From: Gekko japonicus
Lineage: Eukaryota
Reading direction: 5' to 3'
Assembly (NCBI RefSeq): GCF_001447785.1
Contig: NW_015165278.1
Span: 16,620-80,619, forward strand
DNA length: 64,000 bases
Shown here: positions 58,288 through 60,762 of the stretch, in pieces
Numbering within the stretch: the stretch's first letter is position 1
How the letters are laid out: each line of letters opens with the position of its first letter
The notes under the pieces: generated by a model
What the model saw: only the letters and a program-made list of their open reading frames with translations
Databases searched by the model: none
Told to the model about the DNA's origin: nothing
Position numbers and translations under genes: made by a program

Positions 58288-58628
58288 GTATGTATGCCTT
58301 GTAACAGCGTTAGCATTGAAAGAGCAGATGTAGCTGTCTCCTGATTTCATGTGGATTGTGTGTTGACGTCATGGCAGCGTGTGAGCAGGGTTATAACTTG
58401 GTTCCCATCCTGTTTGGTTTCAACCATTTGTGAGGGTTTGGGATAGTAATGAAGGACAGCGTCTTGCAGATAGCTTTCAGTTCATTGGTTTTAGAGATTG
58501 GTAACAAGACCGAATATTTTCATATATTAAATGCTGGTAGTGGTATTACAAGAGCCATTTTGTGGCATATTCTAATGTAGCATTTTGCAGTCCACCTTAA
58601 AATAGTGTGCCTTTTCCATATTCTGTTT

Positions 58629-60419
58629 TTGTGTGTGTGTGTGTGTTTGGATCCCCCTGAGGGGACTTTTTTATTGATTTTTTGTAAACTACAACCGAAA
58701 ATATAGGGAGGGGAACTACGTCTAAGGGAAAAAGAAAAAAGACCCACTAATAACTAAAAACCCACGAGGAGAGCAATACATCAGCTTAACTCAATGTTAG
58801 TTTTAAAAAGCTATTAAAACAATGAACATAGTCGGCTATGCTAGGTTAATTACCTTTTAACTATTCATTTAACTGCTTAAAGAAACCCCCCAAGCATCCC
58901 AAAATCATTTCAGAGTTTTCAGGCACAAATCAGAGTCCTTCAGCCACTATGCAGTTTTGGGAGCAGCCGCCCCCTTTTCAGAGGGTGAGTCCTCATCCGA
59001 AGGCCCCGAGCCTAACTCTCCATCAGATTTGCTTTCTTCTTCTTCTTTCTCGTCCTCAGCTGGTTCCCCGAGCTGTGTTCGCAGAAAATCACATGCCTTA
59101 AGAACAGAGTCAATCTTTTCTTTTTTATCGTGTAGTTTGAAAATGATGCCTTCTGGGATTAACCATCTATAACTGATGCCCTTTGTTTGTAAAAATAGGA
59201 TTAGCTCTTTATAATTCTTTCTCTTCTTTCATATGTCAAATGGAATGTCTTTTAAAATCCTGATGCTGTTGTCCCCAGTTTTCAAGGGAGTTCCCGAAGT
59301 TGCTTTCAAAATAGAGTCTCTCACATGTCTCTTCGAGAATCTGACTACTATTTTCCCAGGCAGATTATTTTTCTTGATGTATGAGGAATAGGACCTGTAC
59401 ACCGCATCCATCTCGCTGTAGACGTATTCCGCGGTCAAATCTGTCATTGGGGCTATTGCTTCACTCAGTCGTTGCTTCAGATTCTCCTTTAATTTCCAGG
59501 ACCCCTTGAAACCCTAGGACCAAATTGGCTTTCTCCATTTGCAACTGCAAAAGTTGTGACTCTTCCGTGACTTGCTTCATTTCCAGCTTTTGCACCTTTT
59601 TCTTTTTTAGTATTGGCGTCCATTTCCTTCACCTTCTCCCCCATTTGCTTCGTTGCTTTTAAGGATTGAGTCAATTGCAGCTTCTGTGAAGCCAAACTCT
59701 GACCAATTACTGACAATTGTTGCTTAATACTGGTCATCTCATCCAGCAGAGGGCGCAAGGAATCTGCCAACATTCTTGAAAGCTCAGTGGTCTCTTCCGT
59801 TCAAGGACTGCCCACTAGTTTCGCTTTCAAAAGTTTTTCTTTCTCCGATTTCTTCCCCGCCATCTTTTTGGATTTGTTTACTTAACGAAAAGTTGCTAAA
59901 GTCTCTGATATTCGCCCAAATGCTTATCTGCACTCTGGTAAGTCTCTGAAAGTTTCCAATGCTTAATTTTTCCGCTCCCCCCTCTTTATTCCGTGTTTTC
60001 GTTCATGCGTATGGGAGGGGTCCCTCCCTTGCTCGCTTCGCGTCACTCTTTAAGGGGGGTAGCTTTCTTTTTAATTTTTCATATTCGCTTCAACCCGACT
60101 CACAGTTGTTGGCCAACCGGCCTCGCTCAGCACCGTTTTTTCCCCTGCCCAATCTCCAATGCTTGTCCCGGTCAGTAGGACTCGTACCATACGGTCACTC
60201 AGCGGCAGGACCTTCGGGGCGGAGGAGTGCCTCAATTCTCCGGCATCACTCCATCGAAGAGGTCACCCCTCAAAAGCTCCCTGGCTAGGAGCCTTTTGCC
60301 AAGGCTCCGGGGGGGGGGGGGCGCGACCCGACACCCCTCCTACACGCTGGTTTGCAGTTTGCATCCCCGGGACGTCCAGGAGATGCGTCTGCCTGCGTGT
60401 CGCCATAAACCGGAAGTCC
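58629..60419 (-). mobile_element. ORF1-only L1 derivative (HAL1-like), full length, degenerate ORF1 at 58947-59863
   Basis: 13-bp TSD CCATATTCTGTTT (58616-58628 / 60420-60432). 5' end GGACTTCCGGTTTATGGCG with a CpG-rich 5'UTR. L1 ORF1p-like translation (coiled coil; KIVVRF..RDSILK..IRILKDIP; YRWLIPEG) with two stops and a frameshift. AATAAA and an A/(CA)n tail; no ORF2. Confidence 0.85.
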
Positions 60420-60762
60420 CCATATTCTGTTTGTTGACATTTCAGTGTAATGTGTTCATTTTCTATAGCTAATCCCTTTTTTACCTAATGTTTATTTTAC
60501 AGACATGAGAACTTAAAGATGCAAAACTGGTTTAAAACAGCTGCCTGCAGATTTTTGTTTTTTAAAGCTGCCTGTAAATTCCTTTTTTAAAAGTCTTGTG
60601 TTCAACATAACTTCATTTTCAGCTTCATTTTAGAGGCTGTTAAATACCAAGAATGTAATGTAAATTTGTATAGAATGTTTAGATTTTGTTCTTTAGATAA
60701 TGTAAATAAGCTTACATGAGAAATCTGAATGTTCGGAGATTTTTCTTCTTTTTCTTCTGTAG

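What the first reader, a model, noticed from the sequence alone, without database searches (positions are those of the whole stretch)
58616..60432. Complete ORF1-only L1 derivative (HAL1-like) with TSD, antisense in an MRE11 intron
Seen: a 1.79-kb unit bounded by a 13-bp TSD. It begins like an L1 promoter (GGACTTCCGG..ATGGCG, ETS and YY1-like motifs, CpG-rich) and has one ~305-codon L1-ORF1p-like frame (58947-59863, two stops and one frameshift, acidic C-terminal tail). About 280 nt later come AATAAA and an A/(CA)n tail, with no trace of ORF2. Known: Half-L1 (HAL1) elements are non-autonomous L1 derivatives that keep ORF1 only. Inference: the TSD shows it transposed in this form, so this may be an uncatalogued gecko HAL1 family, or a prematurely polyadenylated L1 transcript. 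It also carries a strong CTCF-like motif (CCAGCAGAGGGCGC, 59743-59756) and could drive antisense transcription into MRE11.
Basis: partly seen in the sequence, partly recalled or inferred. Interest (0 to 1): 0.7.

Follow-up and report, generated by a model that had tools for sequence, protein, structure and literature searches.

The report
Old gecko half-LINE-1 parasite lineage
This is one broken copy of a several-hundred-copy lizard jumping gene that keeps only LINE-1's RNA-binding gene and likely borrows the copying enzyme from complete LINE-1s, a design known from mammals; here it forms an old lineage of its own, with a shared hairpin at its tail end.

Summary
Confirmed. The 1.79-kb unit in an MRE11 intron is a decayed copy (two stops, two frameshifts, C-terminal deletion) of an ORF1-only L1 derivative (HAL1 class). 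The genome holds roughly 600 or more copies of its subfamily, with the same 5' end, the same 3' end and TSDs. None of 20 copies sampled by their 5' end continues into ORF2. Intact sister copies encode a 318-aa protein with the L1 ORF1p fold (profile E 6e-8, Foldseek E 4e-10). Variants shared among copies show purifying selection (N/S 0.22); private ones are neutral (0.96).

Four ORF1-only subfamilies (37-52% identical proteins) form one clade (100/99) with no ORF2-bearing parent found. All four end in poly(A) hexamer, hairpin, poly(A); one autonomous L1 family has a hairpin in that place and is a candidate enzyme donor. Most also keep a C-terminal YxLR motif, weakly predicted to bind H2A-H2B.

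There is no support for a host role: the intron splices normally, no antisense start was seen (low depth), and the CTCF-like motif is family-wide ORF1 sequence. This scan has noted lizard half-L1s repeatedly on other DNA, including this genome.

The parts
60420..60432 (.). 5' target-site duplication (13 bp)
   Evidence: exact repeat; chance 0 of 20,000
59864..60419 (-). 5' UTR, CpG-rich, inferred internal Pol II promoter; start shared by family copies; ETS-like site 60410-60417, ATGGCG 60401-60406
   Evidence: promoter function inferred, motif names recalled
58947..59863 (-). Decayed ORF1 (family protein 318 aa: coiled coil about 25-114, RRM about 115-207, CTD about 208-267, acidic tract, basic YKLR tip). 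This copy: stops at codons 21 and 214, deletions of 5 nt and 2 nt, loss of codons 308-318
59743..59756 (+). CTCF-like motif overlapping ORF1 codons 36-41; family-wide, not specific to this copy
   Evidence: consensus recalled; binding untested
58676..58946 (-). 3' UTR (about 270 nt), no ORF2 remnant
58670..58675 (-). Poly(A) hexamer AATAAA (AATAAA in 58 and AATTAA in 23 of 85 subfamily ends)
58652..58665 (-). Terminal hairpin, 5-bp GC-rich stem and 4-nt loop, between hexamer and tail; present in all four ORF1-only subfamilies with differing stem sequence
   Evidence: 81 of 85 subfamily ends fold at -4 kcal/mol or lower; predicted fold
58629..58648 (-). Poly(A)-derived tail decayed to (CA)n
   Evidence: sister copies have A-rich tails
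58616..58628 (.). 3' target-site duplication
58288..60762 (+). MRE11 intron that holds the element (context); spliced GT..AG
   Evidence: (13 raw reads in 3 runs and 1 contig)

Best explanation
The element is a dead genomic copy of a multi-copy, ORF1-only LINE-1 derivative (HAL1 class) whose source copies kept ORF1 under purifying selection and likely moved by target-primed reverse transcription, using ORF2p borrowed from complete L1s. Shown: fixed 5' and 3' ends, TSDs, A-tails, no ORF2, L1 ORF1p homology, selection on shared but not on private variants, and one clade of four subfamilies with no ORF2-bearing parent found. Inferred: a source copy is transcribed from its internal promoter and polyadenylated just after the terminal hairpin; it translates its own ORF1p, which coats the RNA in cis (or forms mixed trimers with L1 ORF1p); the particle recruits an L1 ORF2p, which nicks (T/C)|A-rich DNA and copies from the tail. 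The hairpin is more likely a 3'-end processing or stability element (about 0.55) than a specific ORF2p recognition signal (about 0.25) or an inherited neutral feature (about 0.2). The window copy has decayed neutrally since insertion and is spliced out with the MRE11 intron.
For: Family: 28 of 29 other loci from the whole-element search end at the same hairpin and tail; 22 of 30 have TSDs of 11-21 bp, with T/C at -1 in 18 of 22 and A/G at +1 in 20 of 22. 48 of 50 ORF-sampled loci align to the element through position 1734 or beyond of 1791. Of 20 loci sampled by the 5' end, 16 reach the same 3' end, 4 are interrupted and 0 run into ORF2. An exact 3'-end pattern has 282 matches against 8 for the control; 22 of 50 known copies match it, which gives about 620 copies. 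Protein: L004, L006 and L009 have open 318-aa frames; a profile of 17 copies plus P0002 hits human ORF1p 2ykp at E 6e-8 over residues 71-256; the AlphaFold model (pLDDT 83) matches 2ykp at Foldseek E 4e-10. Selection: in 77 copies, non-CpG N/S is 0.96 for singletons, 0.64 for 2-3 copies, 0.35 for 4-7 and 0.22 for 8 or more. Lineage: 24 of 25 ORF2-less loci plus the window's subfamily form one clade apart from 40 ORF2-linked ORF1s; IQ-TREE on 35 of these 99 rows gives 100/99; four-fold sites between subfamilies are 19-49% identical. ORF2-bearing L1s exist in the genome, one with an open 1291-aa frame (L158).
Against: Single sequences miss the Pfam L1 ORF1 cut-offs (best Transposase_22 E 0.006, 3 of 18 members; 2ldy E 0.12), so homology rests on the profile and the fold. 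No mobilisation in trans was shown and the ORF2p donor is not identified. No ORF2-linked locus shares DNA similarity with the element (0 of 42). Two copies with TSDs end before or inside the hairpin (L335, L338), so the hairpin need not be copied at insertion. No near-identical copies were found (closest pair 96.8%, shortest terminal branch 1.6%), so present activity is not shown; assembly gaps may hide young copies. The L1 sample is partial: 70 of the best 150 hits out of 32,338 candidates.
Confidence: 0.9

Rival explanations
1. A one-off, prematurely polyadenylated or deleted transcript of a full-length L1.
For: Such things occur in this genome: L200 is ORF1-only, has no hairpin and nests inside an ORF2-linked family.
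Against: Hundreds of copies share the same 3' end; 0 of 20 5'-sampled copies reach ORF2; no ORF2-linked locus shares its DNA.
Confidence: 0.01
2. A passive non-coding hitchhiker, like a SINE, in which ORF1 is a leftover that is not needed for movement.
For: Some copies with large deletions through ORF1 carry TSDs (L342, L349; L041, L047), so ORF1-less forms may be able to insert, though the deletions may postdate insertion.
Against: N/S is 0.22 on variants shared by 8 or more copies, and 0.15-0.33 across all five protein regions. The frame stays open across four subfamilies whose synonymous sites are near saturation. The deletion breakpoints mostly differ between copies and are not GT-AG.
Confidence: 0.04
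3. This copy has been co-opted by the host as an antisense promoter or CTCF site that regulates MRE11.
For: It keeps 33 CpG in the 5' UTR, near the top of the range of 19-37 among 30 copies, and an exact CTCF-like motif.
Against: The motif is exact in 48 of 77 copies and is not an outlier for third-position conservation across subfamilies. The copy's terminal branch (3.0%) is typical (median 3.6%). MRE11 splices normally, with no start pile-up and no reads joining the element to its flanks; 20-61% of the raw reads laid on the stretch run on into unlike sequence, and the loose ends listed inside the element fit other copies. Depth was low (3-12% of three runs read) and strandedness is unknown.
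Confidence: 0.05

Closest known systems
HAL1 (half-L1) of mammals (Smit 1999; Bao and Jurka 2010, not held; seen only as passages in PMC5753468, PMC3627910, PMC5786205, PMC8535693)
   Same: Non-autonomous L1 derivative that encodes ORF1p only, keeps its 5' promoter region and maintains ORF1 coding capacity over a long time (29-44 Myr is quoted for guinea pig in PMC3627910).
   Different: The host is a squamate and the origin is presumably independent (HAL1s arose several times in mammals, PMC5753468). It has split into four subfamilies with 37-52% identical ORF1p and no parent L1 was found. It has a conserved terminal hairpin and a YxLR tail; the passages read do not say whether mammalian HAL1s have either.
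Human L1 ORF1p (PDB 2yko, 2ykp, 2ldy)
   Same: Coiled coil, RRM and CTD in the same order and fold.
   Different: About 18-20% identity; it has an added acidic tract and basic tip of about 50 aa; no ORF2 follows.
HeT-A (Jockey clade) and Ag-Sponge (CR1 clade), as described in a passage of PMC5786205
   Same: ORF1-only non-autonomous LINEs whose protein is proposed to multimerise with the autonomous partner's protein.
   Different: Other LINE clades and hosts; insertions here are dispersed over many contigs.
Stringent LINE/SINE pairs with a 3' stem-loop (UnaL2, ZfL2, SART1; algal and monocot L1; passages of PMC5135761)
   Same: A stem-loop at the very 3' end of the RNA, kept with differing stem sequence; one autonomous L1 family here (L156 group) has a stem-loop in the same place.
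   Different: Stringent pairs share 3'-end sequence, whereas here only the position and shape are shared. Recognition by ORF2p is untested.
Prototype foamy virus Gag chromatin-binding site (Y537, L539, R540; passages of PMC9040877)
   Same: A Y-x-L-R motif in a disordered C-terminal region of a retroelement's RNA-packaging protein.
   Different: Unrelated protein and only a four-residue match. It is absent from subfamily C, and binding has only weak model support.

Membership tests
HAL1 (half-L1) | Encodes an L1-type ORF1p | tested here: met
   Profile E 6e-8 to 2ykp; Foldseek E 4e-10; Pfam single-sequence cut-offs not reached
HAL1 (half-L1) | No ORF2 | tested here: met
   Window; 0 of 20 5'-sampled copies; 48 of 50 ORF-sampled loci follow the short 3' end
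HAL1 (half-L1) | Multi-copy family that retrotransposed as a unit (fixed ends, poly(A), TSD) | tested here: met
HAL1 (half-L1) | ORF1 maintained by selection in source elements | tested here: met
   N/S 0.22 shared against 0.96 private
HAL1 (half-L1) | Mobilised in trans by L1 ORF2p | not testable with these tools
   Indirect only: (T/C)|A target bias, 11-21 bp TSDs, ORF2-bearing L1s in the genome
HAL1 (half-L1) | Already catalogued as a named Repbase or Dfam family | not testable with these tools
   No repeat library is available; paper searches listed no squamate HAL1
Bipartite deletion derivative of an extant autonomous L1 | 5' and 3' parts match an autonomous family | tested here: not met
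   0 of 42 ORF2-linked loci show DNA similarity; only the first 18 or so nt resemble L146 and L148; sample partial
Spliced L1 retrocopy | GT-AG junctions at internal deletions | tested here: not met
   None of the deletion junctions printed for copies of this family is GT-AG; the founding loss of ORF2 cannot be tested without a parent
Stringent LINE partner | Conserved 3' stem-loop | tested here: met
   Four subfamilies, predicted folds; stem sequence differs between A and B with pairing kept, read by eye; no formal covariation count because the alignment did not keep the stems in register
Stringent LINE partner | 3'-end sequence shared with an autonomous LINE | tested here: not met
   The L156 family has a hairpin in the same place but a different sequence; 65 other ORF2-linked ends have none
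Histone 3' stem-loop or other Rfam RNA | Rfam match at the hairpin | tested here: not met
   No match reached a gathering score in 5 loci, and no Histone3 hit was listed at E 1 or below
Nucleosome acidic-patch tether (PFV Gag type) | YxLR peptide binds H2A-H2B | tested here: inconclusive
   Weak support: score 0.59, best control 0.00, partner pLDDT at least 47, runs agree in at least 67% of contacts; peptides are outside the calibration

The most novel reading that the evidence does not exclude
Geckos, and probably other lizards, carry an ancient self-perpetuating ORF1-only parasite of L1 that outlived its parent. It picks its enzyme donor by a terminal RNA hairpin that mimics the one L1 family ending the same way, which would be stringent recognition in a vertebrate L1. 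It uses its own ORF1p, through a foamy-virus-like YxLR arginine anchor, to tether the RNA particle to nucleosomes, and may scatter CTCF sites encoded inside ORF1.
Probability: 0.15. Interest if true: 0.72.

Novelty: new member of a known kind. Interest (0 to 1): 0.42.

Why it matters
HAL1s pose a standing question: why does a non-autonomous element keep making ORF1p when Alu-like elements do without it? This lineage supplies natural intact copies, four deeply split subfamilies and many coexisting L1 families, so cis-need for ORF1p, donor choice and the role of a 3' hairpin can be tested directly. It also extends a design described for mammals to squamates, as far as the paper searches show. 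The copy in MRE11 itself looks like ordinary decayed repeat DNA.

Tried and rejected
Pfam scans of the window fragments and of intact copies gave no hit above a cut-off. The word-based protein search found only one relative (P0002). The ESM Atlas gave no answer. Bao and Jurka 2010 is not held, so HAL1 features come from citing passages. Splicing as the source of internal deletions was rejected. Histone stem-loop identity was not supported. Selection on the CTCF-like motif is inconclusive: it is within one mismatch in 16 of 25 ORF2-less loci and 0 of 42 ORF2-linked loci, and it uses the rare CGC codon in three subfamilies, but it is not among the top windows for third-position conservation. No RNA holder was listed for the stretch, which is no evidence either way. 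Family-level expression (where transcripts start and end) stays open. The first IQ-TREE run on 99 rows did not finish and was replaced by FastTree on 99 rows and IQ-TREE on 35. The idea that the L156 family is itself non-autonomous was rejected: other copies carry RT sequence. Its ORF1 is not resolved as sister to the ORF1-only clade. A search for CTCF, LINE-1, ORF1, binding motif and lizard together found 0 papers; ORF1p with acidic patch found one meeting report that does not link them. No supplements were read; repeat tables in genome-paper supplements may already list this family.

Full report
Observation. The element runs on the minus strand from 60419 to 58629 between exact 13-bp repeats; a repeat at that distance arose in 0 of 20,000 random draws. 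It has a 556-nt CpG-rich leader (observed/expected 0.83 against 0.36 in window 1-58000), an ORF from 59863, a 270-nt 3' UTR, AATAAA at 58670-58675, a hairpin at 58652-58665 and an A/(CA)n tail. It lies antisense in an MRE11 intron: the downstream exon matches human MRE11 at E 1e-30, and 13 raw reads in three runs plus one contig join the exons across it with GT..AG ends.

It is a family. A search with the whole element scored 40 of 8,650 candidates, and 30 loci were fetched. Of the 29 other loci, 28 end at the same hairpin and A-tail. Of the 30, 22 have TSDs of 11-21 bp, with T/C before the site in 18 and A/G after it in 20, a weak bias of the L1 endonuclease kind (recalled). I sampled three more ways to avoid bias. 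By the 3' end, 29 other loci all continue upstream in element sequence as far as the copy or a gap allows, a few being 5'-truncated. By the protein, 48 of 50 fetched loci (of 125 matches) follow the element to position 1734 or beyond. By the 5' end, 16 of 20 fetched loci (of 40 matches) reach the same 3' end, 4 are interrupted and none runs into ORF2. An exact 3' pattern has 282 matches against 8 for its control and is matched by 22 of 50 known copies, so the subfamily has about 620 copies, probably more. Terminal branches have a median of 3.6% (window copy 3.0%, shortest 1.6%) and the closest pair is 96.8% identical, so the sampled copies are not recent.

The protein is L1 ORF1p. Three of the first 30 loci keep an open 318-aa frame. 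Single sequences fall short in Pfam and reach only E 0.12 against 2ldy. A profile of 17 intact copies plus P0002 hits the human ORF1p trimer chains at E 6e-8 across coiled coil, RRM and CTD. The AlphaFold model from a 97-sequence alignment has pLDDT 83, and its top 11 ranked Foldseek matches are human ORF1p, the best at E 4e-10. In 77 distinct copies, with CpG sites excluded, the ratio of non-synonymous to expected changes is 0.96 for singletons, 0.64 for variants in 2-3 copies, 0.35 for 4-7 and 0.22 for 8 or more. Copies decay neutrally once inserted, while the copies that gave rise to others kept the protein.

It belongs to an old ORF1-only lineage. A search with a distant lizard ORF1p (P0002) gave 150 scored matches, of which I fetched 70. 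Of these, 42 are followed by ORF2, 25 are not and 3 are undecidable (L116 was moved to the ORF2-less group because its ORF2 hit lies beyond its own tail). On 99 rows, 24 of the 25 ORF2-less ORF1s group with the window's subfamily (A) at SH 99, apart from 40 ORF2-linked rows; two short rows were dropped. IQ-TREE on 35 rows gives 100/99 for that clade and resolves no autonomous sister. The clade holds subfamilies A-D, with 37-52% protein identity and 19-49% identity at four-fold sites. TSD-bounded elements of 1.8-1.9 kb were seen for B (L139, L191) and D (L175); none was found within the short loci for C. An unnamed protein from another assembly (P0003, 44% identical) falls inside the clade; its organism and its lack of ORF2 are unknown. 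L200 is a separate ORF1-only copy inside an autonomous family. No ORF2-linked locus shares DNA similarity with subfamily A. One ORF1 of this genome is identical over the aligned columns to a Gekko japonicus protein, which fits a gecko host.

The 3' hairpin. All four subfamilies end in hexamer, pyrimidine arm, 4-nt loop, purine arm and A-tail; 81 of 85 subfamily-A ends fold at -4 kcal/mol or lower. The A stem (TCCCC/GGGGA) and the B stem (CTCTCCT/AGGAGAG) differ in sequence and both pair; I read this by eye and made no formal covariation count. It is not an Rfam family. Of 76 ORF2-linked ends placed on a tree, 66 had a called hexamer and tail; 65 have a short spacer with no fold and one is a mis-call. 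One autonomous family (L114, L120, L144, L156) does end with a hairpin in the same place, of different sequence, in 18 of 20 copies, and it carries RT. For stringent LINEs a 3' stem-loop is the RT recognition signal, and mammalian L1 is classed as relaxed (passages of PMC5135761). That family is therefore a candidate donor. Against this, no sequence is shared, two copies with TSDs end before or within the hairpin, and a hairpin between hexamer and cleavage site could simply serve 3'-end processing (inference).

The protein tail. After the acidic tract, subfamily A has Y-K-L-R (Y in 70, L in 68, R in 72 of 77 copies), B has YNLR, D has YQLR or YRFR, and P0003 has YDLR. C lacks it, and many ORF2-linked ORF1s carry an xTR motif instead. 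Foamy virus Gag binds the nucleosome acidic patch through Y537, L539 and R540 (passages of PMC9040877). A model of residues 287-318 of an intact copy with this genome's H2A-H2B scored 0.59 against a best control of 0.00, with partner pLDDT at least 47 and at least 67% agreement between runs. The tool calls this weak: its mark was reached by 51 of 78 solved and 2 of 108 mismatched pairs, but scores of 0.60 or under came from 5 solved pairs and all 4 passing mismatches; peptides are untested, and solved basic peptides on histones may be recalled by the model. It is a lead only. The window copy has lost this tip. Two earlier scan notes on fixed tails in other lizard half-L1s drew my attention to this region.

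Host role. The CTCF-like motif is exact in 48 of 77 copies and within one mismatch in 70. It recurs within one mismatch in 16 of 25 ORF2-less loci but is not an outlier in third-position conservation. RNA reads show normal splicing, no pile-up of starts, and reads on the element that largely carry other copies' variants. Depth was low and strand unknown, so antisense transcription is unsupported rather than excluded.

Comparison and verdict. HAL1 is defined as an ORF1-only non-autonomous L1 derivative that arose several times in mammals (passages of PMC5753468), with long ORF1 maintenance in guinea pig (PMC3627910) and a proposed multimerisation with the partner's protein (PMC5786205). The defining paper could not be read. 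Every testable feature is met. Searches for HAL1 with squamates, lizards or geckos listed no description (passages checked in PMC8535693, PMC5203782 and PMC12129022), but Repbase, Dfam and subscription journals were not searched. This scan has recorded lizard half-L1s many times, in this genome and others; those notes are unchecked and are not counted as support. Verdict: a new member of a known kind, interest 0.42. What this report adds is the single old clade without a parent, the selection test, the shared hairpin with a candidate donor family, and the YxLR lead.

Noticed in passing
L156 family (L114, L120, L144, L156, L201-L220); related end in L292 near 8573: An autonomous L1 family ends in hexamer, 5-6 bp hairpin, poly(A), unlike 65 other ORF2-linked ends; most of the copies extended upstream are 5'-truncated.
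   Followed up: partly
L200 (G000:C8334:1861900-1865900): ORF1-only copy without a hairpin, nested in an ORF2-linked family: a second, independent loss of ORF2. Whether it is a family or a one-off was not tested.
   Followed up: partly
L337, L058, L344: Nested or chimeric elements: a diverged ORF1-only element inside a subfamily-A copy (L337), a truncated A copy at the tail of a diverged one (L058), and an A-type 5' end joined to a more diverged 3' part (L344).
   Followed up: no
L024, L025, L029, L064, L073: Several copies carry insertions of 0.3-0.9 kb near the end of ORF1 or in the 3' UTR, with long open frames that suggest tandem repeats.
   Followed up: no
L158:2477-6349, L146: An L1 with an open 1291-aa ORF2 frame, and a full-length TSD-bounded L1 whose first bases resemble the 5' end of the ORF1-only element.
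   Followed up: partly
ORF2-linked ORF1 tails (L112, L118, L127, L140, L183 and others): A recurrent C-terminal [VMI]xTR[LQS] motif after an acidic tract, possibly another arginine anchor.
   Followed up: no
window 58916-58945 and 59103-59146 (read loose ends): RNA reads from at least two related subfamilies are present in runs X11 and X13; one loose end matches the branch holding L091, L096, L099, L101, L106 and L107.
   Followed up: partly
P0004, P0019: Public annotations name these lizard L1 ORF1 proteins 'apolipoprotein A-IV-like' and 'trichohyalin-like', which are likely misannotations from the coiled coil.
   Followed up: no
window 60822 and 60864: A>G and T>C differences in reads over the MRE11 exon, probably alleles.
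   Followed up: no
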